Positions 27,529 through 64,000 of a stretch of DNA of 64,000 nt are shown in pieces (the first letter of the stretch is position 1; every line of letters starts with the position of its first letter). The notes beneath the pieces were generated by a model. The model was not told the DNA's origin and ran no database searches. It saw only the letters and a list, made by a program, of their open reading frames with translations. The DNA lies in contig MNCI01000811.1 of the NCBI GenBank assembly GCA_015680685.1, forward strand, positions 112,381-176,380, in the 5' to 3' direction. Both the position numbers and the translations under genes were made by a program. Source of the stretch: Gnetum montanum. Taxonomy: Eukaryota > Plantae > Gnetophyta.

Positions 27529-28099
27529 TGTAACATCCCATCCATGGTTAAGGGTGAAAATGTATTATATAAATGTAATCAACCTTCAAATAAAAGAGTG
27601 CCTCATTATGAAGAGTTATGATTATTCATGTATCCCTCAAGAATGGGTTTTAACTATGCTATTTAAGGCTGGATTTAGAGGTCATGTTAAGCATGGAGTT
27701 GCAAAGCTTGGAAAGGCAAGTGATGAGCATCAAGTGAAGTAAGACAAGAAGGAACTAATCAACCCTTTAGTTGGATAGCCTAACCATGTTGGTAGTGCCA
27801 AATTGCCTCTAAGGCTTAAGTGACATGGAAAGATAACCCAAAGGGTGTTACAGTAATCTTTCTTATTAATGAAATATTTCTCCATTTTTCCTTCCTATTG
27901 CATGTACCAATTATTCATTTACCAATAATTCATTGATCAGAGTATTTTATGATATTTCCATTATGCTACTTATGAATGTTATGAATTAAGAAATGAATGA
28001 TCATGTTTTTATGAAATTCGGGAATGAGATGTTACATTTGGTATTAGAGAAAACCATGATTTATGAGCCAAATTGGAAGAAAATATTATATTATTATTG

Positions 28100-38819: not shown

Positions 38820-41800
38820 GATTCCCATGACCACTGCCATTCCCACCTCAAACTTGAAGGTGCCCTACGCTATCCAAAGCATAGCAAGTCCTAAGTGACC
38901 ACCCAGCCTAGTGCTAGTACAGTAATAGTCCCTTAGGCTATAGCACTTATCACTTGAGCATTTGGCACAAGACGCAGAGCGATACGATTTCCTCTATGCA
39001 AAAGTCCAAGTGAATCTACCCTTAGATCGACAAGAATACAAAGATAAACTTAATTTTGAGTTCCTCCACCAAAATGGGAGGGAGTTCATCCCTACTCCTG
39101 ATGTCACCATCTTGCTAATTGAAGTGTATCAATGGGTGCTAAACCAACTGATGCAAGTGGGTAGGTCTAGGGAATGGGACATAGCATCCCACTATGATGA
39201 AGCATTTTAGGATGGGCAGGAAGACTTGGACTCCCACTCTGAAGGTGGTGGATAGATCTACATCATAGCTATCCCTTCCATTGCTATCTTCTGGTCAAAA
39301 CTACTCTTCTCTTTTGCCCCCTTTGTTGTCGCCACAAGCCTACCATAGCCCACACCCTCTTCAATAATGGGCATTCATCCCATGTTTTCAACCTATCAAC
39401 ACACAACTCCTTCAACTTCATTTCTAGTCACCCTCCCTTCCCAGTCTATCCTGACATTGTACCCAACATTAGTCATGGTTAAGTTGCCATACATGCACAT
39501 TGTGCCTACATCACAACTGCATGCAAGTTTTCCAACTATTCCCTCATCTGCATCCATCCCACTACCAGTAGCAGACCCACTCTCAACCATGTGGTGGATG
39601 CTAACTACTTCCCTCCATACTACAAAACCCTCTCAAATGTCACATTACATCCAACCCCAAGCATACCAAATCCCATAGGTGGTACAACCAAACATAGGGC
39701 TATGGGCCACCCTGCCAACTGGGCAAGTAGCCAACCCCACGGTGCCACCAACGGCCACTGCTCCAACAGCACCACCCACTAGGTGGTGGACCACCCAGGT
39801 AGCACCACTTGCTGGAGCAGCCCCAATGATGCCTCCCATGGGACAGGCCACTACCCCAATGACGTCACCCATGATGGCTTCTTAGGCAACCCTGCAACCG
39901 TCTACAATGTCCCTGAGTCTAGATCAAGCTTTCCAACTCATCCAGACCCTCACTGAGGAAATCAAATGGCTTAAAGTCACTGGTTGTAAAACCGTGTAGG
40001 TTATGGAATTTTACCATGACAACCCTATCAGCCTGGTGATCCCTATGCTTACATTGGTCCCTGGGGTGCCACTCCCCCAATTTATAAAATACAACAGGAA
40101 GGACAATCCCAATGTGCATTTGGTGACTTTCAAGTCTGAATCTCTATTGTTACAGCCATGGCCTCACACCATCATCTACATCTTTTCCATTTCTTTAGTA
40201 GGAAAAGCTCTAGACTAGTACCGTGCACTTCCACATGCCTCCATCTCCACCCTAGAAGAGCTGTTAAGTTAGTTCATGACCTGCTTCAAGTACAACCTGA
40301 AACCGAAGGTCACACTAGATCAACTCATGAGCATCAAGAAGGATTCGCTACAACCTTAAATGGTGGTGGAGCACAACCTTAAATGAGATACGCAAGTTGA
40401 TTACCGAGGATTACTTGTTGGCCATCTTTAAGGGAGAAGTAAATGACTTCATTAAGTCTAAGCTCTACTACCTAGCCTCATGCTCACTCAACCAAGCCTT
40501 TTCTTAGACCAAGAGCATTTAGGATGTGGCCAAAGCTAGTAGGGACTTGACCTATGTCACCTATAAAAATTTCCACATTAAGAAAGACAAAGAGAAGGGC
40601 AAGGCCATAGCAACAATAGTGGCTACTGTGGCCAAAGAAACCAAGCCTAGAAACAACAACAACAAAAAGGTTGCTACAACATCCAACACTCACACCAATG
40701 CCACACCTAGCTCCAATAACACAAGATAGTCCTCAACATCAACACCTGCAGTGCCAACCTAGCCAAGGCCTAACTTTGAGTGCAAAGATCACTCCAAGTA
40801 TACCCCCTTACCCATTAAGCCTTCTAAATGTTTGAAGCAATTGTTGGAAGCCGGGTGTATACAACATAAACGGATGTCAGAGGAGGCAATCAAACACCAT
40901 CAAAGGTATTGCGAAGTTCTTAGGAACCCCTCCTTGGCTATGCCCAATGAGCCACCAGTCCCTAAGAATTTTAGGTTAGAGCATTTCTGTGACTACCACC
41001 AACTATGTGGTCATGATACAGATTACTACCTAGTACTAAAAGATGATATCCAAATGATGATTGATTAGGGCAAGCTAGTCCTAGACAAGAGCAGTCCCAT
41101 CTACCCCAAAAACTAGTTAATTCATGTTTACAAAGACCCCCTTAACACTAACAATGTGGGGTACACCATCAACATTATTGGCATTGACAATAATCCAGAA
41201 CCACCATAGCAACCATTCGTAATGCGCGTGCCTCCTTGTAATGCAGAACCACCAACAAAAACAACATTGCAAGCCCCATTTTTCCTTAAAGTTTCTCATT
41301 AGACATACACCTCATCCTTTGTGCTCAGAGTTGCACCACCACCTGTGCCAACACAATAGGCACCATTTGTCATTAAGGTGTCAAAACATCCAAGCTCCTC
41401 TACCACCCAAAGCTAGGGAATAAAAATTGCACCATAGCCTCCTCATCCAAAAAAGTGTGAAGAGTGTTTGGCAGACAAGCTAGCTAGGGAACGTATTGCC
41501 TTAGGTCCCCCTAAGCCTATCCCCTTATCTACAGTCCCTATGGCCTCTTCATCATCAGCTATTGGTGGTAGCGTACATACACAATTGATGCCCACCAAGT
41601 CAAAAAAGCTTGTTAGCCAACCTAAAACCACTCCCCCTCAGGAGATTCATCTTCTAGGATGTATAGAAGAGGAGAAGGTTGGCAAATAACAAGACGTCAA
41701 GAAGGACTTTCTCAACATCCTTACACAAGTCAAATAGGCCCTGAAGTAGACAAACACAACTTTGAGCCTATATGACCTGATAATGACTTTCAAAACACAT

Positions 41801-42600
41801 CATGAGGCCATGGTTCATATGTTAGCGTCTATCCCTGTTAACGAAAACATGCTAGATGAAGAGAAAGTAATCCACATTTTCATGCTTTCCTCTACGATCA
41901 AAGAACCATGGCCAGTGCATTTGACATTTCATGATAAGCCCATTAAGTATTACCCTAAAAAGGGACAGGTGACAATGTCACCCATGTTCATCACAATTCA
42001 AGTCAACCAGTACAAGATCCAAAGGGTACACATTGATGACAGGGTTGCTACCAATGTCATTCCCTTTCTCATAGTGGACAAATTGGAATTGGTCGATCAA
42101 ATCAAGCCCACGGAAACTTCTTGCCTGAAATCATTCAATGGGGTGCACATAGTGGTAAAGGGAACTATCCACATTAACTTTGTGGTAGGGGACCAGTTCC
42201 CCACAAGCACAGTGTTCATTGTGATGGAAGAGATGCTTGAGTTCAACCTAATCTTGGGGAGGTCATGGTTAGCCCAATTAGGGATTGTCTCTTCATCGAT
42301 ACATAAAGAGATCCACTTACCCTATGTGGGCAGGGAAGTGGTGATCTATGGTGATGAAGCAGCTGCCCAAGACATAAACAACGTTGGCATGGAGTAGGGT
42401 TCAGAGATAGTAATCTCTGAGAATGAAGTATCTCTTCATGCTAAAATCCTTTGCTTGACTGATGAGCTGGCCAAAAATGCCGACTTAGATAAAGAAACTA
42501 TGTGGGCTGAGTTGCCTTCTCAGACAGTAGACAATGACATAGAAGAATACCACAACAAAGCCTCTTAGCCATATGCTTCACCTAGCCCATGATGGGTTAG
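38820..42600 (+). pseudogene. B1 gag-protease
   Basis: LPQFIKYNRKDNPNVHL, SLVGKALD*Y, knuckle FCDYHQLCGHDTD, protease IQRVHIDD..TNVIP..FNLILGRSWL. Confidence 0.88.
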
Positions 42601-42899: not shown

Positions 42900-43260
42900 A
42901 GGATAGCCTTAAACTAGCACCATGGCCCGAAATGGCCTTAAACTACCATTGTGGCCTGAAATGGCCTAAAACTAGCAACTCTAGTTCCCTAAAACAAAGA
43001 ATACAAAAATAAAGTAAAAACTCATCATCATTGAGCAACGGCCCGAACTGGCCTTAAACTATTGTAATGGCCCGAAATAGCCTAAAATTAGCAACGGCCT
43101 AGAATGGCCATAAACTACCATCATGGCCCACTAAGGCCTAAAACTAGCAACTCCACTTCTCAAACAATAGACAAGAATAAAAAGAATCACCATTAAGAAA
43201 ATGGCCTAAAATGACCTTAAACCATTGCTGTGGCTCGAAATGGCCTAAAACTAAAACAAG
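42900..43260 (+). repeat. Array of GGCCCGAAATGGCCTTAAACTA motifs
   Basis: About 9 copies with variable spacing. Confidence 0.85.
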
Positions 43261-43489: not shown

Positions 43490-45954
43490 GAATGACTAAC
43501 CTAAGATGGCCCCACATCCATTTCGAAAGGTATCTTATCCATGCCAGCCGCTAGAAATTGTAGGATCTCCTCCTCAATGAGGTTGGCCCAATTTTCCTTC
43601 CCCAGATCAACACTTGTTGCAACTTTCCCTTTCTCCACAGCTATCCATCTCGAAGGTCTTAGGGAAAGGGTGTTGGTGGTGGTCTCCCTGGAAAATAAGG
43701 TCATTTTCCTTTTAGGAGATTCACTGACCACCACCTGTTGCATGAACTTCTCATAAGCTCTAGAAGCGCCAATGACATCAAGGAATAGCTTATGGGTATG
43801 CAACTTAGCTGAAGCATCCTGATATTATTTATGATAGGTGGCATGTTCCATTTTATACATGTGCTTATGGTTCTTTTGTGCCTACCCCCATTCGTATACC
43901 TTTGCACTATAGTCCTTCTATTCTTGGTTCTTCTGAGCTAGGAGGTTCATCTTCATGTGTTGTTTAATAATCTTGCGAGTGGTCTCATTCTTACTCCGTA
44001 CAGCTATCCAGTATCTTGCATAGTTAATCACAGCCATATGCCAACTACCATCATGAGTGTCATGGGCCAATAAAAACTCATTTCTGGACCGAAGGTCCTC
44101 CAACTCAGCGGCTTGGGTAGCCTTCTCTTTCTCAAGTTTTTGTACCCTCTTCCAAAGGTCCTCATTGACATACCTACACTCTCATAAGGAGTGTGTCGAG
44201 TACAGTGAAAATTTACATGTTTTCTCGTATATATGACAAGGTACCTCAACTACTTCTAGAGGAAGTTCAGGCACTACATCAACCTCTATCACTTGTTAGG
44301 GGTCCTACTTGAGACAAGAAGCTATCAATCACACATGGAAAAGCATTAGTCACAGTGCCATAGCAAAGAAATGCAACAACTTAGAGAGTCTAATGTAGTA
44401 ATTCCAACATACCTATCTCAGGATCTATCTACCTTAGGCAATTGATCATGTCATCAACTACTCCATCCATAAAGGTAAATTTATTAGGGGTCTTAGTCCA
44501 TGGTCAGAGACGGATCAAGGAAGAAGGATCAGGGGCATTAACAGTGGTGTCTGCTGCACAATAAAACATGTTAGCAATGATGGAGAGGGAAACAATGAAG
44601 TTGATGAATAACATAAATGAAAGCACAAAGCTCCTACCCAGAAAACCCTCAGGAGTGATAGTGGGGGGATCATCCATTGACACACTGTCAAGCAAGTGAT
44701 CAAACTCACCAGCATTGAATTGCAACCCTATCCATTCTAGCTGACTCAAAAGTGTGGTGGCATCCTCAACACTCATATGCCCCTTAGGTATTGGGGCACA
44801 CTTCATGAAAGGGTCATCGGTTGCAGGGGCCTTTTCCTCTACGACGGGGGGCTCCTCCTTTATGCTGAGGCCTCTTCTTCCTCTACAGCGGGTGCCCCTA
44901 CTTTAGGGGCCAAAACCTCTTCTTGTTCTTCCTCTTCTAATAAACACGTTCAAAATAAGCAAGATACTCCAACTTAAAATAGGCACTACACTAATTAGAT
45001 AGTTAAAAACACTTATCAATGATGGGTTGCACCTTGCGAACCTTGATTCCCAGCTTTCTCCCTCTTTCTTCAGTAGTACGGGGAGGATCTTCCACTGAAT
45101 GAGACTTTTTACGTTGTAGCTTGGTCTTCACCATCTCTACAATGAGATGTTCCCCACTTAACACATTGCCTATGTTGATGGGAGGCACCTCTCCAACATT
45201 GTCCCAGGCATGAAAGGATCATGCCACCCAATCACTCATTGTTATCGAAAGATATTCTGCAATAGCTTCTAGGGGGCTTGGGATCAGGTGATGCGGAACA
45301 CCTAGAAAATCCATGGCTTGGATATCTGGTTACGATCTTGCTATACCCAGGAATCATTTTCATGAACCACCAATAATTGTACAAACTGTCGTAGACAAGC
45401 TATGAAGAAGGCATAGTGAATGTTGAAACATGCATCAAGCTTCTCATGAAGCTTAACCATTTTAGCATGCAAGCCTTCAGAAAGGTACTTGGCCCAATTA
45501 TAATGGATCCCTTCCTTCATGACCTCCCTCATGATCCAATCCAACCCTACTCCAAGGATCTTCCCTTAGGAGAGTAGTTTGGGAAAGGCATGGGCTTAGA
45601 AGACAGGGTAAACTATTTGAGCCACTGCTAGCTTGACCTTATGGATATAAATCCCCTTTCAATCCTTACTTGTCCCTAACCATTCCTTGATATTCCCTTG
45701 ATGGTTTGCATCTTTGCTAGACTTTTCCCCTATAGGTAGACCATTAGAAGGGACCCCAAAAAGATCCAAAAAAAGTTTATCATTAATTTCAAACACCACC
45801 CACACATTATGAACCTGTGTGCAGAATCGATCAGCCTTTTCGAAAAGGAATTAGCTAGGGAAAGCATCTTTGTAGTTGGGACACTTGGATTTACTGCCAA
45901 GAATAAAACCATGAGCCTAGCCTCCTGAATGTTGTGAACTAGGGTGGCTAGGGC
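43490..45954 (-). pseudogene. B1 antisense spliced gene (decayed)
   Basis: Homologous to the B2 antisense gene (YNWAKYL/YNWAQFF; VEKGK..VDLG.ENWANL.EEE.LQ); donor-like sites near 44636, 44412 and 43499. Confidence 0.7.
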
Positions 45955-47386
45955 TGAAACACCACTAATTTCGGCCTAATACTTTGAGCAAGAATGACTC
46001 ACACTTGAGATTTCGAAGGAAAAATTACACATGCTGAGGTGATGCTGGTAGTGTGAGTGCAGCGTGCATAACTTTCAATGCCCAAAACTAAGTCAAAATT
46101 TCAAAGTGCAAGTCATCATCAAGACTTATTGTTGAAAACTTCAGACTTTAGCCTCCAAAATTCCAAGAAAATTACGAGTTTGTTTGCAGCTCACACTGCA
46201 GGTCATGCTGTGGTCACGCTGTAGCATGAGTCCAATGTGAGCTACCATAAATGGCTCAAAATAAGGCACTTTTAGGCTCAATTTGTCAATCACAGTCAGG
46301 AAACCCTTACACTTTAAGAATTAGGCTTCAAAATTCAAAATTCAAGATTTGGTGAAAATTGCAAGTCTTTGCTCATTCACGCTGAAGTCACACTGCAGCA
46401 TGAGTGTAGCATGCACATGCTGAGGACACGCTGCAATAAAATTAACTTACACTAGAAGTCCTGATCAAGTAGAGATGCCTCAAACAGCCACAAAACCACT
46501 CGAATTGACATCTGCAGTAGGCAAGTTAGAAATCTAGAAGTTTCAAGCAAGCCAAAATCAATTTCTCTTGTTATTTCATTATAAATTTCCATCATTTGTC
46601 ATTCGTCGAGCTCTTACGCTCTGAATTGTATGTGCCATGAGTGTAAGCTAACTTGAGCGAGTTGTCACACGTTGTAAGATACAATGTACTTGGTCTAGAA
46701 TGTAGCTTGCCCACACACGTCCAACTCACATACAGTTGTCCATTGGACACGTGTCACTTGATCAGCTTTCCTTTCATCTTCCAACTATTGATTTCATTCT
46801 TGAATTCTACACCCAAGCCTGGCCGAGCCCTATAAATACCCTATCAATTCACATAAATGGGATTGGCAATATTGAAGCTAAACGACTTAGGAAACTCAGA
46901 CCAGTAATCCTTGGGTGCTTAGCACACTTGACTCCTAGCATCCAAGCACTTCTGAAACACATCACATCACATCACCCCGGGGCTTGGCGCGTGACCTACC
47001 ATCCACACGTGTAGCTATGCTTTGACTAGTGCACATCTTTTCTAAGCAATACAATATAGTTCATTTTTCCAACCATTAATTTTTTTTACTCTATTTTACA
47101 TTTAGTTTACATTTTTTTTATGATACTTACATAAGTTTCTGTTTACATTTCGTGTGCACTATTTACATTTTAAAACATCAATTATGATAACCCCAACGGA
47201 AGTCATAGTTTACGCTTGGGGAAGTCCTTGGTTGATTTGCATGCAGATCATCCAAGGCACTTTGCCTTCATTCCCTTTTCTAGCTTACCCTCAAGCAAAG
47301 GCAGGGTCAACTGTGTCTACCTGACAATCTTTCGATGTTTGTTTTTTTTCCTTTTCAGCCTTACACTGACAATTTAGGTCAGTACA
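45955..47386 (+). repeat. B2 5' LTR (right end approximate)
   Basis: TGAAACACCACTAATTT.. matches the sequence from 63524 onward; TATA CTATAAATACC at ~46830; ends ..CAGTACA shortly before the PBS. Confidence 0.75.
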
Positions 47387-47392
47387 GTAAAA

Positions 47393-47409
47393 TGACACCA
47401 GAAGGAGGG
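47393..47409 (+). promoter_or_regulatory. Primer-binding site, tRNA-Asn type
   Basis: TGACACCAGAAGGAGGG ~ TGGCGCTAGAAGGAGGG, the complement of the plant tRNA-Asn(GUU) 3' end (recalled sequence). Confidence 0.65.
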
Positions 47410-47767
47410 CCTAACTTGTTTGTTGTTTTTTAAAATGTCAATCACGCTACCTGCTAAAATGCTACACAGACTAAGTACTGAAACTAAAGCACAGTTTGTC
47501 TAGGTAACTTACATATGCTAGCTTAACTTACCCATCCTGTCCTTGTCAGTCTCCTATTAGTTTCTCACACAGTAGTTGTCATGTTGTCAGTTAGTCACAC
47601 TGTTGTAGTTGTCACACTGTTTGTCAGTCACGCTGCTGCAGTTTCTCATGCTATAGTTGTTATGTTGTCTATCAGTCACGCTGCTGTAGTTGTCATACTA
47701 TCTATTAATCACGCTACTGTAGTTGCTCACATTCAACTCGTCTAACCTAGTTTACTCACGTTCACTA

Positions 47768-50700
47768 TGGAATCCTCCCAAATTAACCCAGTAACACTGC
47801 TGATCTCAAACTTTGGGGTTGAAACCTTGAACCTTGTGACTACTACGGAACCTATAACCATTATTGAACAGATAAATCCCCAAGGCCCTATGCACTAGTC
47901 ACTTAGGTTACAGGGCAAAGACCCTACCTATGTGAATCTTACACCCGAACAGTATAATTTCATCTGTGTCAAGATCCAATCCAATTTACCTATCGATTGT
48001 ATAGAGAGGGAAGCAAATAGAGACTATGAACTTATCAACAAAGGAGGTCATGAGTTCATCCCTTCAGTGTTAAATATAATCCCACTATCTAAACACCATC
48101 ATAAACTCATATCTCAGCTTCTCATGGCAAGGAGTCAAGCCTTACAGCTACCCCCAATAGAGCCTCAGGGTGGAAATGAGGAAGATGAGTTCGCAGCCTA
48201 ATTTGAACATGGGGATTCATACCATACTGTTAGCCCCCATTCCCATACAACCCATTGTTTCAACCTTTCCTAGAAGAGACTACACTTCCACCACCAGCTT
48301 CTCTATAGGAAGTACCCACTCCCATTCCCATCTTCTCAAAGTTCAACATTCAATCTAACATGTCCACTTCCATCGTACCTCTGCAAATACAAACCCAACA
48401 ACCTCCTCCTTAAACTAATGTAGGATTGACCTTTCGATCTCAAGTGATTGGGATGTCATCGGTCATACCAGCTTCCACATCTACCCATTACATACCTCAA
48501 GTGCAAATCCAACAAGCACCACTGATAACCTATGAATAGGTAGTGGGTCCCACCAGTTGTTCAACAAAACCTGTCTACTCATTACAGCGTACCACACCCC
48601 ATAGTCTCAGCCCTGAACATCGTCCCACCATAGCAAACGATAGTCCAACAACCTTTCTTTCCACAAATTGTGCAACGATCGAGTCATTATGAATCACCAT
48701 CAACCCAACCTGCCAATCTTCCTACCACTCAAGAGTAGGCAGATACGAAGAAAATGATGCACTCATTAGCAGAAGAATTAAAATGCCTTAAAAATGTGAA
48801 CACTAAGGAAGTCAAGGTACTAAACTTCTATCAAGATGATCTAATTGATCCCTCAGTCCCACCGCCAACCTTGCCAAAGAGAGTTTTGTTACCCTAGCTA
48901 ACCAAATACAATGGAGAGGGAGATCCAAACACTCACCTAGTAACATTTTGAATAGAATGTCTATTGCTTCAGGCATGGCCTCATGTAATTCTACGTGTGT
49001 TTGCTATGTCCTTAACCAAAAAAAACCCTAGACTAGTACCAAGCTTTACCCCGTAGCTCCATATCTTCTTTAGAGGACTTGCACCAGTTCGTCACCCGTT
49101 TTAAATAAAATCTAAAGCCTGAGGCTACGTTAGATAGCTTGATTCAAATTAAACAAGCGCCATTAGAGCTAGCACAAAAATTCATCCAAAGGTGGAGTGC
49201 GGCCTTGAATGAACTTCATAAGCCCATCCCTGAAACATATCTACTTACCATCCTTAAGGTGGTTGTGAATGATTTTATTAAGTCAAAGCTTTACTATTTG
49301 AAAGCCCATAGCTTGAGCTAAGAATTTGTGCAAATTAAAGACATAGAAGAGGTGGAAAAAACAAGCAATGACCCAGCTTACTCGACCCTTAGAAATCAAC
49401 ATAAAAGGAAGGATAAATCCAAAACAACAGTAGCAGTAGTGGCCAAGATAGCCTGACCTAACCATCAAGGACAAAAGGGAAAGCAACCCACTATCCCAAA
49501 TGGCTATGAAAGAAACACACCCACATAAACACCCGAAACTTCCTGAAATAGGAACACCAACATAGGTCATTCCCATACAGTCGAAAGAAAAGACCTCACT
49601 CAATACACATCCTTTCCCATGAAACCTTCACAATTTCTCAATCAACTTCTAAAGGTAAGGTTAATCAAACATAAACAAATGTCTCCCACAGCGTCTCAAA
49701 AACATGATCGATTCTGTGAGCTAGCCAAGAACCCAGCCTTAGCAACAGCTAATGGACCCCCCATTCCAAGAGGCTTTAGGTTGGATAGGTTTTGTGAATA
49801 TCACCAATGGTGTGGTCATGGGACCGATTACTATTTCACCTTGAAACAAGATATACAACACATGATTGACAGGGGTGAAGTAGTGTTCAATGAGAAAAAT
49901 CCAATAAGACCCCAAAACCAACCCATGGGGGTTTACAAGGATCCTTTCAACACCAATGATGTGCCATATGTGATTAACACTATCCATGTGGAGAATAGAC
50001 AAGATGTCCCACGAAAACCTTTTATGATTCGTAGGCTTTCAGAAAACACACCCACCTCAACATCTCCTCAAACCCCTTTCATCATACACACATCCCCTAC
50101 ACCACAAAAACCATTTGTTATCCAAGTACCTCCTTCTATTGCAACAACAACCACACCATCTGAAAACCAACCCATTCCCTTGTGATCTGGGTGCCAAAAC
50201 ATCCTAACACACAACCTACTTCCATTCCTCCATGACCTCTACGAGAATGTCTTGTCAATAGACTAACAAGAGAGTGCATGGAAAGAGAAAACCATCAGCA
50301 CAAATTAGGACCACCAAAACCTATGCTGCTAAATGTTGTTCCTATGGGTCCGTTCATTAATGAGCCTAGTACGATTCATCAAAACAAGGATGATGTCATG
50401 GGTTGTGTCCCAAACACAGCATCCTTAGTCACTAATGCAAAAATCCCTCCATGAGAAATACGAATGCTAGGTCAAATGGATCAAATCTCTATGGATAAGG
50501 ATGTCCCAAATGGTAAAGACCTAGCGAATGTGTTGACCCAGGTCAAACAAGCCTTAAAAAAAAGAAACACTTCTTTAAGTTTGTATGACCTAGTAATGAC
50601 TTCACCAGTACATCGAGAAGCTCTCGTACGGATGCTGACTTTGATCCCTGTTAGTGAGGACCTTCCTACAGATGAACCATACATTTATGCAGTATTGTCC

Positions 50701-51450
50701 ACGCAACCTCAGGAATCAAAGACTACATTCCTAAAGTTTCGTGCTAAGTACATTAAGCTAGATAAGAAAATAGGAGAAGTCACAATAGCCCCTATGCTCA
50801 TAATGATACAGGACAATCATTTCAAGATACATAGGGTGGATGTCGATGACAATGCGGTGACAAACATAATACCTTTTCCTGTCATCGAAAAATTGGGACT
50901 TACTGAACAAATATAGCCCACGACAACTTCTTTCTTGAAATCCTTTAGTGGTTCTCGCATTGGAGTGAAAGGTATGATTACCTTAGATTTCATATCTAGG
51001 GACCAATTCCCCACATCAGATGAATTCATAGTGGTCGATGGAATGCCAGGGTTTAATCTGATTCTAGGATGTCCCTGGCTAGCTCAACTTAGAGCAGTAT
51101 CCTCACCGGTCCATCAGGAGATCCACCTACCTTACGAGGGTAGTGAAATCATCGTACATGGGGATACAACAGTATCTCCCACTTCCTCACACCTTGGAAT
51201 AGATCAAGAGTCAGAAATTAAGTTCGTTGAGCCTAAGCAAGAAACTATGAGCACACATCAAGAGATGAACCCAACGTTAACTCACGATCTCACTAAAACT
51301 GAGGAAGCACTAGACAATTCAAACATAGGATCCATTCCCAATGATGTCTCCTAGTCAGAATTACCCTTTGACATCACTGATGAAGGGAAAGTGAGTATAA
51401 GATCATACCCACATGCCCAACCCCTCATATTAAACTACAAAATATTAAGA
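47768..51450 (+). pseudogene. B2 gag-protease
   Basis: KYNGEGDPNTHL, FCEYHQWCGHGTD, IHRVDVDDNAVTNIIP, FNLILGCPWL; several TAG stops. Confidence 0.9.
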
Positions 51451-52094
51451 AGTAACTCAATAACTAGAACAAATCACCAATGTCCAAAATGATGTTAAAC
51501 TACCAATGTCCAAAATGACATTAAACTATCAAACATCCGCAATGAAATTAAACTAGCCATGGTCAGAAATGGTCAGCTCCTTTTTAAAAGCTTTCTGAAA
51601 CTGCTATTGCTTTTGGCCCACTATGGCATAAAACTAGTAATCTTTCTTCTCTTAGCAACAGATGCAACAGTCCACCATGACTTTAAACTAATGTGAATGG
51701 CCTGAAATGGCTTTAAACTAGGATTCAATACATCACAAGTTTACAAACATTCAAAAGTTTACAAAAATTCACTACATTATGTCAAATTTTAGTTTAAATG
51801 ATGCAAGTTGCAGTCTCAATCTATGACTTTTTATTACTTCTTTTACAAATATTAATTCATGTTTTGTTCCCCCATCTTACATTTAGTTACACGCATATGT
51901 TCACGATAATACTAGAAAAAGTAGATAAAAAGAGAAAACAAAAAATAAAAAAAATGATACATTAATATGGTAGTAAAGTTTCAACATATTATGTCATAAT
52001 TAGGTCCACATTATTACATTTTTCAACCACATACATCCATCAAACATTCAAAAAATCCAAAAAACATTTAATAGCTAAAGTCTGATTAACAATA

Positions 52095-55000
52095 AGCTCA
52101 TGGAGGGGGCTGGTCCCCAAGATCCTCTTCATCATCTGCTCTTGCTCCACTAGGGCCAACTCTATCATTAACATGTCCCTACAAACAGAAAACAGAAGAC
52201 AAAACAAAAAAAAAATGGATAAGAGTAGTAAAAAAAATTATAAACAGAAAACTAGAAAACATTAAAAAGGAAAACAAAAAAACCATACAAAAAAATGCCA
52301 CAATAAAACACTCATAAGTGAGGAAGGCCCTAAGTTGGCCTCCAAATGTTGTAGAACCTCCTCCTCAAGCATGTTTGCCCAATCCTCCTCCAGGCCAAGA
52401 TCAACACCAGCTAGGGTTTTACCCTTGTCCACTAAAGTCCAGGTAGGATGCTCAAGAGAGAACATGCATGTAGAAGCATCCCTAGAGGTGGTGGCAATTG
52501 TTCTCTCAGGAGATCCCTCCACCTCGATGCACTCGGTGAACCTGTCATAAGCAAACCACAACCCTAACCCATCGATGAATATCTCCATCTGGCAATGTTC
52601 AACTGACTCCTCCTTCAATCATTTCTTATATTGATGTTTGTGGTCCTTTTGATCTTGGCCCCACTTACGTACCTTAGCCGCAAAGGACTTCCAATCATGA
52701 CATTTTCTGTTCAGAAAATCCATCTATGCCTTTTACTTAGCTAGGTCTCGGGTCGCTTGCACTTTGCTATTCAAAACCATCTAGTAACGTGCATAGGTGA
52801 TTTTAGATGTGCGCTAGGTGCTATCACCAGATAGTCTAGCAGCAGCAAGATCATAATGGGATTAGAGATCCCTTTACTCCCTCTCCTTTAATAGCGCTTC
52901 CTTTAATGAATGAACCTCATCCCATAAATACTCAACTGAATGCCTACAAGTCCAAAGTGACTTGGCGTTCTGTACGACACAATCGAAAACTGCATCATAC
53001 ACATTTCTTGGGACTTGCTCAACATTCTCTGGTAGCTTAGGGAGAGCATCAATGTGAGTATCTTTAGAGGGATCCCACTAAAGCTTGGTGCCTACAGGTG
53101 TTAGTACCACATATATGAATCAGTTATAATCAATAAAGAACGTAAAGAAAAATAATAAACCCAAACACTAAGTGTAATACACAATACACATACCTAGCTT
53201 TGGGTCAACTTCTTGTAGGCGAGCAACCACATCATTAACGATGCCTTTAACAAAGTCCATTTTTCTAGGCATCTTAGGCCATGGCCTCAGTTAGTCAGTC
53301 GATGTGGGACAAGTAGGGGAGGTCACTTCGATTGGAAACTGGGTCCCTAGCATCTCTGCTCGGGATGCATGTGCCTCAGAAATCTCAATGTCTACCTCTG
53401 ATACTAGAAATGATCAAGATAATCAAAAACAACACATGAAAATTAAAGGATACAAAAACATAGATTGTGCTGAAAGGAACATACTGAAAAGCCCTTTGCT
53501 ATTTAGCTTAGGTGCATCACCAAGCTGTAAATATCCATACAAGAAGCCATCGAAGACACCTCTTTCATCATTGGATTTCCTGAGTGCATCCAAAGCCTCT
53601 ACAAGCTTCATCCCCATGACGTCTATCACATCTTCCTCTTGCAAGGTGGAAGGTTCTTCAATAGTTTCTTCTTTTTTCTTCGCCTCTTCCTTTGACCCTG
53701 TGACATCCACTTCAGGATCAACCATCATGGCCAAAGTCCCTCTCTCTCTCTCTCAGGAACGTCCTCTAATAATTCTGAAATCTTAGAGTTAGTATAACAT
53801 AGTATATATAACATATAGGCCAAAAAATAGCAAAAAAAGAAATAATAAATATACAACAATAAAATAAGATACTTACCTTCCACTGGTAGTACAAACCAAA
53901 TCTTCTTTGCTTTTGGTGGTATCACATCTGGAGCAGACTCTCTTGGATGTTCTTTCCTCTTTACCTTTTCCTTGGACTTTCCCACAGTCTCACCAATCAA
54001 ACATTCAATTCTTTTAACAGACGTGCGTAGCCTGGGTGATTCCACTCCCAAGCTATCATGGGAATGATGCGAATGGTTGGCCGCACCTCCACTAGTAACT
54101 AACACCGATTCTTCAATATCTTCTGGTGGGTCCTGGGATCTAGTGGTGTTTAATGAATGGTGAATCCAAGGATGGGATAGTTGTGAATAGTCTCTCAAAA
54201 TATAGCGGTTATCATCATAAACCACTAAGAACTCAGCAAACCTATGTAAGTATCCCACAAATAAAGCAAAGGTAAAATGGGATTTACCATGGATGTTGGA
54301 ATGTAATCTATTGATTTTCCCATGAAAACCATATGCAAAAAATTGAGCCCAGTTGTAGCACATGCTTGTCTCCAAAACTGCACGCATGACACATGCAGAC
54401 TCGATCCCAAGGTTTCTTCCTTGAGAAAGAGATTTGGGGAATGCCCATGCTCGGAAGAGTGGATATAAGAAGTTTATCTCCATTGATCAGTTATCATCTC
54501 ACATGGAAAAACCCTAGGACCCTAAGGTACACCTAACCACTACTCAAGCTCTCTTATGATGTAGCCTCTTTTGTGGCTTTATCTATGATCACCGTGGCAC
54601 CATCCATGGGTATGCCAAAAAGATCAGAAAGAAATTCAGTGGTCAAGTGAAAAGATACCTTGACTCCTCAAACTTGCATGCTAAAATGGGAAGCATCATC
54701 ATTGAAAGAGTCAAAAATAGTGACCATCTCAGTAACTGGAATGTTAGGAGTCAAAACTGTGAACAAGTCCATCAGACCTACCTAGGTGAGACAGCTAATG
54801 ATCAAGTTAGAAGCTTTCTTCTGCAACCATTGTTGTGACTGATCTACCTCCCCATACTTCATGAAAAGGGTGGCCTCAGTACGTCTTGTTACAATAGTAA
54901 CTTCTTTGGGGAGGATGGATGTTGTAAAAAGAAAACATAGAGAAAAAATTTAAAAATAGGGTACACGATAATGCAACCAAAAAGAAGAGAAAATGGAGTC

Positions 55001-57540
55001 TAGGGTGTGGTCATTTACCATCAGTAAATGGTGTAGGTGGAATAGGTGCAAGATCAATTATTTGAGGGAAAATTGGCCCATTAGAAGATCATTCCTCATG
55101 TAACCAACCTCGAACTTGGCAATGCTCAAAGGCTCTTGAAAACTACCTATGGTAGTCAACAAGGGATACCTTCATCTGGTCCAACACTGCGACACGAAGA
55201 ATGGGGCCTACCATGAATGTCTCTAGCGTTGTTCGCACTAAGGAAAGCCCACCATCATCATCATGCATCCCATGTTCATCAAAGAGGGGCCTGCATAGGA
55301 ACACAACATTTACATTTAGATGATGACATAAAATTTAAAACAGAATCACAAGTTAATGTAAGACAAAAGGGAGCATGCCTATCCACTCTATATACTATCC
55401 CAGGTGGATTCTGGAATAGAGTGTGCACATGGAGGGCTAGGAAAAGTGTGTTGCTGCGGTTGTAATGACTACACATAGGCAACTACCACACACGAGTCAA
55501 GGGATGTGTAGATCTAGGACCTTCAGCAGGGCCTCCCACAACCTTGAAAAGTCCTTCATCGATATCAGTGATAAAGGAAAGCATGCCTTGTGTAGACCCA
55601 GGCAACGTTGTCTCAATGATGTCACGAGCCAATTGTTCACTCAGGTGAGACCATATAACCACATTAAAATTTCACAAGATAAATGACAAAAATGAACTGA
55701 CACCAAGGCAAAACCATATCACATGAGACTTGATGCACATGTCATAGGGAGGTATGTTTGGTCCAAAGGGGCCAAACCAAGCAAGTACGCCACTAAGCTC
55801 AACCACGAGAAGAGAAGATTTAGGTCCCCTACATACAGCAAAAACATTAGGTAAGTAAAGAATCTAGGTGCTAACAATAGGTCAAAATCCCAAAAATCAA
55901 AAATTACATAAATAGATAGATACTTTGAATACACAGCTTCACCCCATGAGACAAGGACACCGATATCTATTTAGTGTATTTGACACTCACTGGGGTACAT
56001 TGAAATCCATTTCATAGTAAATCCACACAAAAATACAGAACATGAACACTCACTCAAGCAAGGTTTAAATAATCCATTTTAGGAAAACAAATAAAAGATA
56101 TAAACATGAAACCAACAAGTAATGGGCCTTCCTAGCAAACTCGCAAACTCACGTTGTGGCCAAAGGGCTCACGCTGGAGGGCTCACGCTAGAGGACTCAC
56201 GCTTACCTTCCCTCTCTCACGCTAGCCTTCACAACCCAACGCACACTAACATTCCAAATTCATGAATGCTGGGGCCTGTTCACCCACACGCACGTTGGGG
56301 CCTGGTCAACCGCTCATGCTGGGGGAGCTCACGCTGGTCCTGTTTAGCAAAATCACGCTAAGATTTTCCCTATAACACAGGCCTTCCCTACAATGCAAGC
56401 CTTCTTGGTCCACACTGACTTCACCCCTTTCATTGCCCACATTCATGCTTCCAAGAAGGCTGAAAACCCTACGGCCCAGGGGGTTGAAAATAAAAAACTT
56501 GTAGCTCACGCTGCATGCTACCCCACCCTAGAACAGAAATTTGCAAGTCATGTTGCCCTACCAAGAAACCCAACACGCTCACACTGCCAAGAAATCTAGC
56601 CCAAGAAGTCGAAAAAACCCATAAACCCTGTGATGCAGGAAGCCCCAAAAGTTCACATTGTCCTAAACATTTCGTGGTGCTCATGCCCTAGGCACTCACT
56701 CCCTAAGCACTCATGCGGGCCTTTGTAGATGACTCACACTGATCTTTTAGGCCTGTACTCATGCTAGGACTAGCTCCAACAACCCACATTCCAAATTAGA
56801 GGGTTTGCAACTCATGCTTCCCTAACCTAAAACCTTGTTTTTCATACATTGATGCTAAAAAGAAATGAGAAATTGGCGCTGAAAACTTCTGCAATAACGA
56901 AGCTCACACTATGAGTGAAAAGAAAACTAGCTTTTCCCTACACTCACCCTGGTCTTCCCTTCTCTTGGAATTCACGCTACTGAAAACCAAGATGCCCAAG
57001 AAAGCCACAAACCCCACGGCCTAGGATGCCAAGAAAACTTAAAAACCCAACCCATGCACTCATGCCCCAAGGTTGCATTCACGCTGCTCATGCTGATGCC
57101 ATGAAATCCAAAATTGCAGCAACAAAACCCAAAAATCAGAGGAATTTTACCCTAGGAAACATTGTTCATAAAATTTCAAAGAAGAACAAGAGAAAAAAAA
57201 CTTACCTGTGTAAGGCCCCATCCCACGTTGGAATCCTGGCTTGGGAAAGACGGTGGAGAAGCTCTTCACTCTCCTCCAAGAATGCCATATCTACCTGCCT
57301 CTTCCCCTTGTCTCAGCTTGCCTTTCCTCTACCCTTGTAATTCATGTTGCCTTGCTCACGCTGACACTGACGGTGTAGCTCATGCTGCACTCCTAGCTCA
57401 CGCAGCAATCCAAAGTAAAGAACTCTTTCTAGCACAAAACACCCTTCCTCCACTTCGAAACACCCTTTTAAACCCAAAACATTCTATTTTATTCTCTCTC
57501 ATTTTATTTTTTCTCACTTGATCTTATTTATGTTTTATGT
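52095..57540 (-). pseudogene. B2 antisense multi-exon accessory gene between protease and RT
   Basis: ORFs 53725-54483, 53423-53734 and 52262-52618. Minus-strand donors AG|GTAAG (~57205, ~56206, ~53876) and AG|GTATG (~53193). T-rich introns with YAG acceptors (~53775, ~53093, ~52179). Confidence 0.72.
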
Positions 57541-57889
57541 TAGCCTATAATCCTCATTATTCTAGCCTATGGAGATGAGGCTGAAAATTATCATTATGGA
57601 AAGTTAAAATCAAATATATATATATATATAGTTCAAAAACTCATAAAATTCAAAAATCCCATGAACTTATCATACACACAAAGTTTCAAAAAAATCAAAA
57701 ATGCTCAATGCACTCATGACAAATCAACATGCATATTATCGGCCTGGTATGGCCTTAAACTACCATAATTGCCACTACATCTTCCAATTTTTTCAGTACT
57801 TAGTTTGATTACCCTATGTTCGTTTACACTTTGTAACTCTCCTGCTAAGGGGGTGTCTCTTACTTCGCTCTCATTTTAAATTGGTAGGA

Positions 57890-60800
57890 GCAAACACCAT
57901 GGCCACCAAGAATATCCTCTCAATATTGTCTCTCAGTGGACCATATGGGGAGGTAGAAAGAGCAATCAACCTAGAATTCTTGGATCTAGACCCATCCACT
58001 TATACCAATTTAATAGCCTCCACTCAAGAAACATCAGACTAGCCTACAAATGTGACTAAGACTTTGGATCTAGAAGCTGACAATATCATTGAAGATCCTC
58101 TAGTTGAAATCCACATTACTACAGTCAATGGCGAAGCTAGAACATTGAAATTAAGTGCCCTACTAAACTCAAAACTTGTAGGTGACATCACTCAAGTGTT
58201 AAAAGACAACATAAAAATGTTTGCATGGTCATACACTGACATGCCAAGACTAGACCCCCGAATCATCCAAAACAACATCATTCTCGATGAAAAAATTAAA
58301 CTGGTGAAACAAAAAGCATGGAAGGACAGACCCAAGGTAGCATTGGCCATCCATGCTAAAATCACAAAGCTCTACCAAGCTGGTTTCATCCAGGCCATTG
58401 ACTATTCCGATTAGGTATCAAACATTATTGTAGTCCCTAAGAAGAACGGTAGTATATACATATGCATTGACTTCTGTGACCTTAACATAGCCACTATAAA
58501 GGATAATTTCCCATTACCTAGCATTGATCAACTTATTGACACAACTACTAGGCATGCATTATTATCCTTTATGGATGGATTTTTAGGGTACAACCAAATA
58601 AGAATCAATCTAGAACATCAACTCAGAACAACTTTCATGACACCTTGGGGCACATTTTGCTATACGATGATGCCATTTGGCCTTAAAAATGTAGGAGCTA
58701 CATATCAACAAGCAATGACATATATCTTTAGTGATTACATGCTAAATTTTCTCAATGATTACATTGACAACATCGCAGTTAAATCAAAAACAACCAAACA
58801 ACATGTAAAAGATCTAGACCTAGTGCTTAAACATTGTCTCAAATATGACCTTAGTCTTAATCCAAAGAAATGTGTCTTTGGTGTCAAAATAGGCAAGATT
58901 CTTGGTTTTGTATTTTTTGAAATAGGAATACGGGTAGACCCTGATAAGGTTAAGGCAATAACTAACATGCAACCACCGAAGAACCTTACCGAATTGCGTG
59001 GTCTTCAAGGTATGCTACAATTCATTAGACACTTTATCGAAAGGTTGACAGATAAGTTGAGACCAATGTAGCACCTATTACAGAAATATGTGCATTTCCA
59101 ATGGACCCAAAAATGTCAGGAAGCATTCAAGAACATAAAATAAGAACTAGCCCAACTGTCGATAGTTTATCCCCCTCAAGGTGATAAACCCTTCTATATC
59201 TACCTTGCAACTTCTGATGCTTCCATTGCATCGATGCTTTGTCAAAAATGAAAATATGGAGCCGAGATCCCTGTGTATTACCTAAGCCATGATTTAATTG
59301 CCTATGAACAATGATACAACAACATTGAGAAATCATGTCTTTCCCTCATTTTTGCCTTAAAGAAATGGTAGCATTATCTCTTCCGCAATCAATTTTACAT
59401 CATTTACAAGGATAATGTACTCTATGCCATCACTAACAACATCTATGTGTTGAGTAGGATAGCTAGGTGGAAAGTGATGATCGCAGAGTTTGACCTACAC
59501 TATGTTGCTCAATCTTCCACAAAAGGTCAAGTAATAGTCATACAATTAGCCATCTCGCCAACGCATGATCAAGCAATGGTTAACCCTAAGTTCCCTAATG
59601 AGAATGTCAATAGTATAGACATCATACCTGATAACTACGAGGCAATCCTCTACTTCGATGGAGCTTCAACTTCCTAAGGAGGAAGTGCTACAGCCATTTT
59701 AACATACCCCTCTAGAGAAATCCAGCCCTTCACCTATCGATTGACATTTCCCTGTACTAACAACATGGCAAAATACGAAGGTCTTCTTAAAGGTCTTCAA
59801 GCAGCATTGAATTCAGGAATCTCATGTCTTGTAGTTCGAGGTGATTCGCAGTTAGTCATTAATCAAGTCACTAAGTTTTATGCATGTAAGGCTCTCCATT
59901 TGCAACCGTATTGTGATTTGACCAAACATCTGCTGAGGCAACTAGCAAAAAACCAACATACCGCATGTCCCTAGAGGCGAAAATACCATCACCGATGCAC
60001 TTGCTACATTAGCCTTAAACATGACACCCGAAATGTTTCATGCATTACCTAGCTTTATAACAAGTTATGCCAAGCCTATAATTAACACTCTTGATAAAAT
60101 GCCCATAGCATCTGTTAGCACAACACATGCAGTAGAATGGTACGATGATGTAAAAGAGTACCTTCTACGAGGTGAACCTCCACAACATTTGACAAATATT
60201 CAAAAAGATGCAGTGCGAAAATGCTCTCGGCAATATGCGTTAATAGAAGACACCTTGTGTCGTAAATTGTACGAAGGCATTCTGCTGATGTGTGTTAGTA
60301 GCATTGACGGTCAAACAATTGTAGAACAAGTCCACGAAAGAATTTGTGGAGGGAAAATTGCACCCAAAGCAATGACGATGAAGATTAGGAGCTTAGGCTA
60401 TTACTGGCCACACATGGAGTACGATTTCATCTCCAAGGTTAGAACATGTGACATTTGCCAAAAGCATGGTAACCTAATACATGTACCACCTAACGAATTA
60501 CACACAACACAAATCACATGGTCATTTCAAAAATGGGGATTAGACTTAATTGGACTAATAATGCCATCATCCTCTGTAGGACATAGCTTTATTATCACTA
60601 CAACTGAATACTTCACAAAATGGGTGGAAGCTATTTCCCTTAAGAATACCACTTCAAAACATGTTTGCACTTTCATAATTGAAAATATCGTGACCCATTT
60701 TGGTATTCTGATGACCATCATTACTGAAAATGGGCCATAGTTCAGTAGTACAGATACTAAAAGCTTTTGTGAAAGCCTAGGTATTAAACATGCATTTTCA

Positions 60801-61373
60801 TCACCTTACTACCCACAGAGCAATGGTCAAGCAGAGGCTACAAAAAAGACTGTCATCATGGTGCTCAAAAAGATGCTAAATCAGAGCAAGAAATGATGGC
60901 ATGAACAACTGGTGTACACATTGTGGGCATACAAAACACATCAAATATCTACGGTTAAAACTCCATATAGTCTTGTGTATGGATCTAAAGCTATTTTACC
61001 TTTAGAATTACAGGTTCCCTCATTGCAGATAGCTCTCTTGAGCCTTCTCAATGAAAATCAAAACAATGAACTATACATTGATGACCTTGACTCAGTAGAG
61101 GAAGAATGTGTGTGAATGCTTAATCGAATCAAGTGGTACTAGAAAAAATAGAGGAAATGGCACAAACACAATCTCCTTAAACACCCAATCAAAGAAGGAG
61201 ACCTACTCCTCAAGGCCACCCGTGAACATCCAGACAAATTTTCAGCCAACTGGGAAGGGCCTTACTTAGTCACCAAGGCATACAATAATAGAGTATTCAA
61301 ACTAGCGAACATGGATGGGAACAAGTTTGCTAATCCTACAAATCATTTGTACCTAAAACAGTACTATGTCTAA
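57890..61373 (+). pseudogene. B2 RT-RH-aRH-integrase
   Basis: MFAWSYTDMP, MDGFLGYNQI, MPFGLKNVGATYQ, YIDN (YIDD mutated), YFDGAS..TNNMAKYE..GDSQLV, GYYWP, KWGLDLIG, PQSNGQAE, NWEGP. Confidence 0.95.
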
Positions 61374-61392
61374 TAAACTTGATGTACGTAAA

Positions 61393-62358
61393 AGTCCTAG
61401 CATCATGACTTAAAACTGATACCATAGAAAAGTCTTGGCATTATGACTTAAAAATAATACCACAGAAAAGTCCTAGCATCATGACTTAAAATAATATCAT
61501 AAAACAGTCCTGGCATCATGACTAAAACTAATACCATAGAAAAGTCCTGGCATCATGACTTAAAACTGATACCATAGAATAGTCCTAGCATCATGACTTA
61601 AAACTGATACCATAGAACATTCCTAGCATCATGACTTAAAACTGATACCACAGAACAATCTTGGCATCATGACTTAAAACTAATACCACAGAACAATCTT
61701 AGCATCATGGCTTAAAATTGATACCACAAAAAAGTCCAATCCGCTATGACTATAAACTGGCACAGCTGGTCCTGGCATCATGACTTAAAACTGATACCAC
61801 AAAACGGTCCTAGCATCATGACCTAAAATTGATACCACAGAAAGTCCTAGCATCATGACTTAAAATGGATTCCACAGAACAGTCTTGGCATCATGACTTA
61901 AAACTGATACCATAGAACAGTCCTGGCATCATGACTTAAAACTAATACCACAGAACAGTCCTGGCATCATGATTTAAAACTGATACCACAAAAAAGTCCT
62001 GGAATCATGACTTAAAATTGATACCACTAAACAGTCCTAGCATCATGACTTAAAATTGATACCACAAAAAATTCCTGGGGCCATGACTTGAAACTGGTAC
62101 CATAGAATGTCCTGGAGTCATGACAATAAACCAACACCACATAGCTCTATCCGATATGATGCTAAACTGCCACATCTATCTGCCATGATGTAAAACAAGC
62201 ATCCAGAGTCCACTAAGACTATAAAATGGTTTGCCTCTTTACAGTCCACCATGACTATAAACTAGCAATGCACCATCCACTATGACGCTAAACTGGTGTT
62301 GTCCAAAGGATCATGACATGAAACTAACCTGGGACAGTCTGCTAAGACTATAAACTGG
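61393..62358 (+). repeat. 3'-UTR tandem array: ~19 units of 38 bp grading into ~8 motif-plus-variable-spacer units
   Basis: Unit AGTCCTRGCATCATGACTTAAAACTGATACCAYAGAAM; distal units keep only CC-N-ATGAC-N3-AAACT. Confidence 0.95.
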
Positions 62359-63510: not shown

Positions 63511-64000
63511 AAAGAGGGACCAATAAAACACCACTAATTTTGGTCTAACACTTTGAGAAAGAACAACTCACACTTGAGCTTTCGAAGGCAAAATTTGGAA
63601 GAATGCATGTTGGCTTGTCCTAGGGAACTCATGCTGGTTTGTAATTTTCTCGATCACACTGAGGTTACACTAGAAGCATGAGTACAATGTGACTGACTCT
63701 CTAATAGACCCAAAATCAAGTGAGAATGATTTTATTTTCATGGTGTAATCCATCCTTGAAGGCCACCAATGTCTACTTCAAGTTTTAGCATTTGGGAATT
63801 CAAATTTGGAGATAAACTATTCACATTTCCTTACGCACGCTATCACACACGTTGAGGTCATGCTGGAAATGTGAGTGTAGCATGCATAACTTTCAGGGCC
63901 CAAAAATGAGTCAAAATTTCAAAGTGCAAGTCATCATCAAGACTCATTGTTGACAACTTTAGACTTCAACCTCTAAAATTCCAAGAAAATTACAAGTTTT
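63511..64000 (+). repeat. PPT (63511-63519) and B2 3' LTR (63524 to window end)
   Basis: AAAGAGGGA, then TAAAACACCACTAATTT..; aligns with 45955-46180 apart from ~245 extra bp. Confidence 0.9.

What the first reader, a model, noticed from the sequence alone, without database searches (positions are those of the whole stretch)
51391..57899. Split pol: a 6.5-kb gap between protease and RT that hosts a whole antisense spliced gene
Seen: gag-protease ends at ~51450 and RT starts at ~57890 behind a pyrimidine tract and AG (57886-57887). There are two candidate donors: GTGAGT at 51391 (out of frame with RT) and GTAACT at 51452 (in frame). An in-frame ATG in strong context (AACACCATGGCC) lies at 57899. 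B1 shows the same layout after its protease, so this is family architecture rather than a random insertion. Known: Ogre elements have a much shorter intron at this position, and foamy viruses translate Pol from its own AUG on a separate mRNA. Inference: either a giant intron with a nested gene, or Pol made independently of Gag from a bidirectional promoter at ~57540-57750.
Basis: partly seen in the sequence, partly recalled or inferred. Interest (0 to 1): 0.8.

Follow-up and report, generated by a model that had tools for sequence, protein, structure and literature searches.

The report
Retrotransposon with antisense gene splitting pol
A decayed, high-copy plant jumping gene carries a backwards, intron-containing gene in a 6.5-kb gap between its protease and its reverse transcriptase, a position not found in the surveys I read, and its copying enzymes likely start as a separate protein.

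Summary
The observation largely holds. Element B2 (45955 to beyond 64000) is a decayed Tat/Ogre-like gypsy retrotransposon: gag-protease, a 6.5-kb gap, then RT-RH-aRH-INT from ATG 57899. The gap holds an eight-exon antisense gene. Four of its seven introns are spliced in RNA from other copies, and its first exon sits about 600 bp head-to-head with pol. B1, at about 50% Gag/protease identity, has the same gene after its protease under coding constraint. No LTR or inverted ends bound the gap, so it is not a recent nested insertion. Distant relatives keep protease 0.4-2.1 kb from RT (29 of 39 loci). How pol is made is not shown: no sense-strand joint appeared among the rows displayed. A matching donor follows protease in B1 and B2, an acceptor precedes the ATG, and 13-17% of family depth has one base fewer between acceptor and ATG. 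This favours Pol starting at its own ATG (0.5) over an in-frame Ogre-type fusion (0.3). The link from antisense gene to pol is seen on one molecule only in B2. The scan had not noted this on other DNA.

The parts
45955..47180 (+). B2 5' LTR (3' end approximate)
   Evidence: matches 63524-64000 at about 88%; K2P 0.136 over 228 nt
47504..47750 (+). predicted leader intron before gag (donor-like GT, AG about 17 nt before the gag ATG)
   Evidence: sequence only; not tested in RNA
47768..51354 (+). decayed gag-protease; protease core 50770-51177; TAG at 51352
   Evidence: 49-51% aa identity to B1
51391..51400 (+). donor-like GTGAGT (phase 0) with a second GT at +4 (phase 1); B1 has a matching site at 42596/42600
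51476..51720 (+). tandem copies of a short motif that is also found before pol and after INT
52098..52178 (-). antisense gene, last coding exon (8)
   Evidence: RNA joint 52178>52316/7 in 4 of 4 runs
52316..53091 (-). antisense gene exon 7
   Evidence: colinear with B1
53194..53403 (-). antisense gene exon 6
   Evidence: 3' junction in RNA (reported 53094>53207); 5' junction predicted
53485..53774 (-). antisense gene exon 5 (frameshift near the CT microsatellite in this copy)
   Evidence: predicted
53877..54921 (-). antisense gene exon 4, the part best conserved with B1 (frameshift near 54500 in this copy)
55019..55290 (-). antisense gene exon 3
   Evidence: 5' junction in RNA; 3' junction predicted
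55379..55828 (-). antisense gene exon 2 (may hide one more short intron near 55640-55703)
   Evidence: both junctions in RNA
55829..57205 (-). 1377-nt first intron of the antisense gene
   Evidence: RNA joints in X16 and X18; GT..AG ends
57206..57345 (-). antisense gene exon 1; in-frame ATGs at 57288 and 57345
   Evidence: RNA depth up to about 570 in X16; DNA summed depth 8,000-12,000
57430..57510 (-). candidate antisense promoter (TATA-like, locally better conserved)
   Evidence: inferred
57741..57762 (+). single copy of the tandem motif; arrayed here in other copies
   Evidence: table 5c
57775..57796 (+). alternative acceptor (phase 0); one TGA lies between it and the ATG in this copy
57860..57887 (+). 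pyrimidine tract and AG acceptor, 11 nt before the pol ATG (10 nt in a subset of copies)
57899..61373 (+). decayed pol: RT-RH-aRH-INT with no protease; 13 stops in 1157 codons and one frameshift near 59970
61390..62140 (+). 38-bp tandem array after INT
63524..64000 (+). B2 3' LTR (runs off the window), preceded by a purine-rich tract
38800..42600 (+). B1 gag-protease with donor-like site at 42596 (start approximate)
43500..45954 (-). B1 antisense gene, 3' part, cut by the B2 insertion

Best explanation
B2 is a decayed member of a high-copy Tat/Ogre-like gypsy family whose gap between gag-protease and RT holds a spliced antisense gene, and its RT-RH-aRH-INT protein likely starts at its own ATG rather than as a Gag-protease fusion. 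Shown: the layout in B2, the same protease-then-antisense-gene order in B1, and splicing of the antisense gene in RNA from other copies. Inferred: the antisense gene is an element-borne accessory gene with its own promoter next to pol. Its introns survive retrotransposition because they lie backwards on the genomic RNA. The gap is an Ogre-type spacer that grew by taking in this gene. A sense RNA is spliced to acceptor 57887, either from the donor after protease (a two-gene mRNA with Pol made by reinitiation) or from a leader or internal-promoter donor (a pol-only mRNA). Pol would then be packaged without being tethered to Gag.
For: RNA joints at 4 of 7 predicted minus-strand introns. The frame carried across all junctions is the frame with fewest stops in exons 2-7, allowing two frameshifts in this copy; exon 1 is tied and the last exon has its terminal stop. 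B1 versus B2 over 444 antisense codons: identity 0.54/0.68/0.39 at codon positions 1/2/3, a pattern like gag (0.62/0.75/0.33). No terminal repeats at the gap edges. 5839 and 5024 DNA contigs lie on 57100-58300; summed depth is 6,000-15,000 on the non-coding 80 nt before the acceptor and 8,000-12,000 on antisense exon 1. One base is missing between acceptor and ATG in 23 and 22 contigs (1421 of 11218 and 1282 of 7604 depth) and in 3 of 5 and 2 of 4 RNA reads; no compensating indel is among the 12 of 19 rows shown. A donor sits at matching distance and phase in B1 and B2 (chance about 0.007 for the second). An in-frame stop lies 36 nt (B2) and 27 or 3 nt (B1) before that donor (chance from decay about 0.11-0.14 and 0.16).
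Against: No sense-strand joint into 57888 was seen: 15 of 23 joint rows were shown and none by RNA, at depth of only about 3-10. Both B1 and B2 have a phase-1 GT four bases into the donor, which would fuse protease to RT in frame in the 11-nt form, and 57796 is a strong phase-0 acceptor. The stops before the donors may be decay, and the one-base-short copies may be dead copies moved in trans. No diverged contig bridges 57485-57694, so the head-to-head link is seen on one molecule only here. The codon-position test uses tblastx-selected segments, which inflates positions 1 and 2. Reinitiation after a long ORF is usually poor (own knowledge).
Confidence: 0.5

Rival explanations
1. Same family layout, but the gap is a giant Ogre-type intron removed in frame (51395 or 51452 to 57887, or 51391 to 57796) to give a Gag-protease-Pol fusion, with the antisense gene nested inside it.
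For: Donor conserved after protease in B1 and B2, each with a phase-1 GT at +4. Ogre's gap is a shown intron (PMC6317226, passages). RT is most similar to Ogre-like proteins. The 34 codons from 57797 to the ATG hold only one stop.
Against: The one-base-short copies cannot fuse in frame with a phase-0 or phase-1 donor at 57887. There are stops just before the donor in both elements. No such joint in the RNA rows shown. No contiguous, intron-less DNA form among the loose ends shown (a weak test).
Confidence: 0.3
2. B2 is a chimera: a pol-less gag-protease plus antisense-gene element (which B1 may be) recombined with the pol and 3' end of a related element, possibly through the shared tandem motif. 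The split layout would then belong to few copies.
For: B1's pol is not in the window. The same short motif occurs after protease, before pol and after INT. No diverged contig spans exon 1 to the ATG, and depth falls to about 100 or less at 57592-57673.
Against: One LTR pair at about 88% encloses the whole. DNA depth before the acceptor and on exon 1 is similar in two organisms. Diverged contigs run from 57694 into pol and from 57201 to 57397, all 30 bins are covered, and the dip coincides with a skipped AT repeat.
Confidence: 0.13
3. An independent DNA transposon or host gene inserted into the gap, and B2 was dead from then on.
For: A multi-intron gene resembles DNA-transposon accessory genes (own knowledge). 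Weak atlas leads to Athila ORF1 and Transposase_32 clusters at 0.83-0.84, below the reliable range.
Against: The same gene sits in the same place in B1 at only 37% aa identity. No inverted or direct terminal repeats. It has gag-like copy depth and is transcribed from other copies.
Confidence: 0.05

Closest known systems
Ogre elements (Ty3/gypsy, OTA, Tat; Neumann et al. 2019, PMC6317226)
   Same: Protease on the Gag side; a gap between gag-protease and RT with donor- and acceptor-like ends; RT-RH-aRH-INT order; large size; tandem repeats.
   Different: The Ogre gap averages 274 bp, against about 6.5 kb here. Ogre extra ORFs are scored 5' of gag or 3' of pol (Additional file 5), and the table has no class for one between protease and RT. 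B2's RT falls outside the angiosperm cluster on a long branch. The Ogre-type DUF7745 profile does not match the antisense protein.
Antisense extra ORFs of TatIII, TatV/Ogre and Retand, including maize Grande gene23 (PMC4408406, PMC7264820, PMC11963269)
   Same: An antisense accessory gene carried by a family and transcribed; Grande's has its own promoter.
   Different: Those lie between pol and the 3' LTR and carry PMD or Transposase_28. Here the gene lies upstream of RT, has at least seven introns and hits no Pfam family. The passages I read mention no introns in them.
Foamy virus Pol (PMC7828637, passages)
   Same: [quoted passage not shown]
   Different: Foamy Pol includes the protease and the mechanism is demonstrated. 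Here protease stays with Gag and the mechanism is untested.
L1 ORF2 translation by termination-reinitiation (recalled, no call)
   Same: A polymerase ORF that starts a few tens of bases behind a structural ORF on one mRNA, as the spliced two-gene model would give.
   Different: L1 is a non-LTR element with no large intron or nested gene in that spacer.

Membership tests
Tat clade (Ty3/gypsy OTA) | Extra aRH domain in the polyprotein | tested here: met
   RVT_3 hit (E 8.9e-08) after RT_RNaseH
Tat clade (Ty3/gypsy OTA) | RT groups with OTA/Tat elements | tested here: inconclusive
   Best hits are aRH-bearing plant elements at 39-56%; the tree had no labelled REXdb references and was the quick version
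Ogre | aRH between RH and INT | tested here: met
Ogre | Protease with Gag, separated from the RT ORF | tested here: met
Ogre | Short gap (average 274 bp) between the two ORFs | tested here: not met
   about 6.5 kb
Ogre | Gap spliced out to give the full polyprotein | tested here: inconclusive
   no joint among the rows shown, at low depth
Ogre | RT inside the Ogre clade | tested here: inconclusive
   outside the large angiosperm cluster on a long branch, next to a Cryptomeria protein at an open node
Ogre | tRNA-Arg primer site and 5-bp TSD | not testable with these tools
   PBS is decayed and no reference tRNA is held; the 3' flank is outside the window
Ogre | Extra ORF with a PMD/DUF7745 domain | tested here: not met
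   no Pfam hit and no hit with a locally built profile; decay lowers sensitivity
TatII / TatIII (gymnosperm) | aRH before RT (TatII) or after INT (TatIII); protease at the 5' end of pol | tested here: not met
   against PMC6317226 and PMC4408406
Retand | Long pol-to-3'LTR region (2.9-6.6 kb) with an antisense Transposase_28 ORF | tested here: not met
   INT to LTR is 2.15 kb with no ORF over 112 aa; no Transposase_28 hit in the antisense pieces
Foamy-like Pol strategy (works like; not a member) | Separate spliced pol mRNA and Gag-free Pol | tested here: inconclusive
   sequence signals and the indel favour it; no transcript shown

The most novel reading that the evidence does not exclude
An unclassified Tat lineage, probably of gymnosperms, that transposed to high copy number with pol split from gag-protease by a whole multi-exon antisense gene. 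It makes RT-RH-aRH-INT as a Gag-free protein from its own ATG, so an LTR retrotransposon reached a foamy-virus-like expression and packaging scheme independently, perhaps with the antisense protein as a required helper.
Probability: 0.4. Interest if true: 0.8.

Novelty: new variant of a known kind. Interest (0 to 1): 0.66.

Why it matters
Plant LTR-retrotransposon surveys class extra genes only as before gag or after pol, and Pol is assumed to reach the particle fused to Gag. A successful family with a spliced gene between protease and RT breaks the first rule outright and may break the second. It offers a natural test of how Pol is expressed and packaged without Gag, and of what antisense accessory genes do. 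It would also be mis-annotated by tools that expect adjacent domains: as two truncated elements and a host gene.

Tried and rejected
No whole genome is held for this window, so full-length copies could not be compared. No RNA holder was listed by index; RNA runs came by species label only. Two searches with the pol N-terminus found nothing. The antisense exon found 1 hit among 1.84 billion representatives (E 9.4e-04), a repetitive bacterial-looking protein rejected as chance. Pfam gave nothing above cut-off for any antisense piece. The atlas gave only leads under 0.9. A single-sequence fold had pLDDT 40.7, so no fold search was run. A resemblance to PMD seen by eye was not confirmed. Viral contigs gave no relative, and the one motif hit, L080, has no similarity to the window. 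In one search the RH and INT queries were off frame; those columns were discarded and redone (25 of 27 loci in RH-aRH-INT order). Seven joint rows around 51927-52295 in X13/X14 and the large minus-mate depth there were dropped as poly-A matches to A-rich DNA. Plus-strand RNA in X13 is absent at 57715-57878 and present from 57879, but this rests on about three fragments in a library of unstated type, so it was not used. One DNA contig joining 57398 to 57864 has only 29 letters on its short side and was not counted. The element was not dated because the host's rate is unknown.

Full report
Setting. The right half of the window is a nest of decayed gypsy elements. A minus-strand pol fragment (A, about 34.2-36.4 kb) is interrupted by B1, and B1 is interrupted at 45955 by B2. 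B2's LTRs start at 45955 and 63524 and differ by K2P 0.136 over 228 aligned bases. The host is a plant; 'gymnosperm-like' is my inference from composition and from a Cryptomeria protein being among the closest named RT hits. No genome is held.

The observation. Protease core ends at about 51177. Its frame has a TAG at 51352 and next stops at 51490. Pol starts at ATG 57899 and carries RVT_1, RT_RNaseH, RVT_3 (aRH) and integrase, with no protease.

The antisense gene is real. Four RNA runs of organism B were laid on 45900-61380 at 80% likeness. Most reads were under 90% alike (for example 5189 of 5754 in X13), so they come from other copies. Joints match four minus-strand introns: 52179-52315 (39, 35, 17 and 12 reads in the four runs), about 53092-53193 (3 and 3 reads; reported ends are a few bases off), 55291-55378 (3 and 4) and 55829-57205 (8 and 10). 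A fifth, weaker CT..AC joint lies at 51577-51668, beyond the stop codon. Three more introns are predicted. Carrying the frame from ATG 57288 across all seven lands on the frame with fewest stops in exons 2-7, given two frameshifts in this copy, for about 1070 codons in eight exons. Two introns have non-canonical ends in this copy. Exon 1 lies 550-610 bp head-to-head with the pol ATG. Most DNA copies do not hold the ATG at 57288; another in-frame ATG lies at 57345. In X13 and X14 the minus-strand joint is read only by first mates on +, and by that key minus-strand RNA also dominates over gag and pol. The protein has no assignable family.

Family trait or insertion. B1 has 49-51% aa identity to B2 in Gag and protease and carries the same antisense gene colinearly after its protease: 37% identity over 444 codons, with codon positions at 0.54/0.68/0.39 (tblastx selection inflates this pattern). 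No terminal direct or inverted repeat bounds the gap. DNA contigs of two organisms pile on 57100-58300 (5839 and 5024 contigs; all 30 bins covered), with similar summed depth before the acceptor (6,000-15,000) and on exon 1 (8,000-12,000). Summed depth is not a copy number, but it shows many copies. Against this, B1's pol is outside the window, no diverged contig bridges 57485-57694, and 16 of 10,893 pieces were shown. For comparison, 79 metagenome loci carried RT at 43-58% identity. Of these, 39 had at least 2 kb upstream; 29 of the 39 had protease 436-2087 nt from the RT core, against about 7240 here, and 10 had none detected. None of the 79 matched the antisense protein. Several loci are repeats of one element, and all are other lineages, so they show that the layout is unusual, not how this family is built.

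How pol is made. Not shown. No sense joint into 57888 is among the 15 of 23 joint rows, and one search lists no RNA joint at depth of about 3-10 (24 of 674 loose-end rows shown). Sequence evidence points both ways. For splicing: B1 and B2 each have a GT(G/T)AGT in phase 0, 282 and 267 nt after the same protease motif (chance about 0.007 for the second), and the acceptor context is kept in other copies. For an in-frame fusion: both donors have a phase-1 GT at +4. For Pol from its own ATG: 13% and 17% of DNA depth (23 and 22 contigs) and 3 of 5 and 2 of 4 RNA reads have one base fewer between acceptor and ATG, with no compensating indel in the 12 of 19 rows shown. Both elements also have an in-frame stop 3-36 nt before the donor, each with a chance of about 0.11-0.16 from decay alone. 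I put own-ATG Pol at 0.5, in-frame giant intron at 0.3, chimera at 0.13 and independent insertion at 0.05.

Comparison with what is known. PMC6317226 (passages, part 3 of 8, Additional file 5) gives Ogre a gap averaging 274 bp, places aRH between RH and INT only in angiosperm Ogre and Retand, and classes extra ORFs only as 5' or 3'. Its Additional files 1 and 3 could not be read and may hold a similar element. PMC4408406 (passages, section 6) puts the antisense PMD ORF of gymnosperm lineage III at the 3' end. PMC7264820 (parts 1-2 of 3) and PMC11963269 (part 1 of 5) describe antisense ORFs between pol and the 3' LTR. PMC12786077 (passages) says plant LTR elements generally lack introns apart from cases such as Ogre and EVADE. 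PMC7828637 (passages) documents foamy Pol. PMC11539532 (passages) reports Ogre-classified elements in Cryptomeria. The Ogre splicing paper was not held and the 2011 extra-ORF survey was not seen. Nine literature searches listed no description of an antisense gene between protease and RT; most subscription journals are not covered. The RT tree (quick method, 115 rows, no labelled references) puts B2 on a long branch outside the angiosperm cluster, so I file it as Tat and Ogre-like, not as Ogre.

Verdict. A real, transcribed, multi-exon antisense gene in a position not found in the literature I could search, very likely a trait of an old high-copy lineage. It is a new variant of a known kind, interest 0.66, and would rate higher if Gag-free Pol is shown.

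Noticed in passing
window 34155-36430 (-): A third Tat-like pol fragment (RH-aRH-INT, 66% nt identical to B2 in RH), cut by B1 and followed by a 20-bp tandem array at 33530-33750.
   Followed up: partly
window 51476-51720, 57741-57762, 61390-62350, 42904-43250: One short motif family recurs after protease, before pol and after INT in B2, and after protease in B1; it could be a binding or packaging signal, or a recombination seam.
   Followed up: partly
window 47451-49518 and 57791-61380: In stranded runs X13 and X14, family RNA over gag and pol is mostly antisense (for example 87.5 versus 1.7 at 47968-48484).
   Followed up: no
window 57218-57278: About 480 reads in each of X16 and X18 share exon 1 but continue into a different next exon: a highly expressed relative, or an exon 1 captured by another gene.
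   Followed up: no
window 47504-47750 and 38780-38820: Both gag start codons have an acceptor-like AG about 17-20 nt upstream, suggesting leader introns.
   Followed up: no
window 63596-63844: The 3' LTR has about 250 nt that the 5' LTR lacks.
   Followed up: no
window about 2977-4365 and 5396-6790: A near-identical duplication spaced 2419 nt apart, with the window's two N bases (4366, 5395) beside it; each copy has a weak minus-strand protease hit. Possibly an assembly artefact.
   Followed up: no
window 30-433, 9471-9963, 14568-15061, 27778-27844: Three or four diverged copies of another repeat, probably LTR fragments.
   Followed up: no
P0004 (Cryptomeria gene model): A conifer Tat-like protein with protease and RT in one model, about 330 residues apart, so not all conifer relatives are split.
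   Followed up: partly
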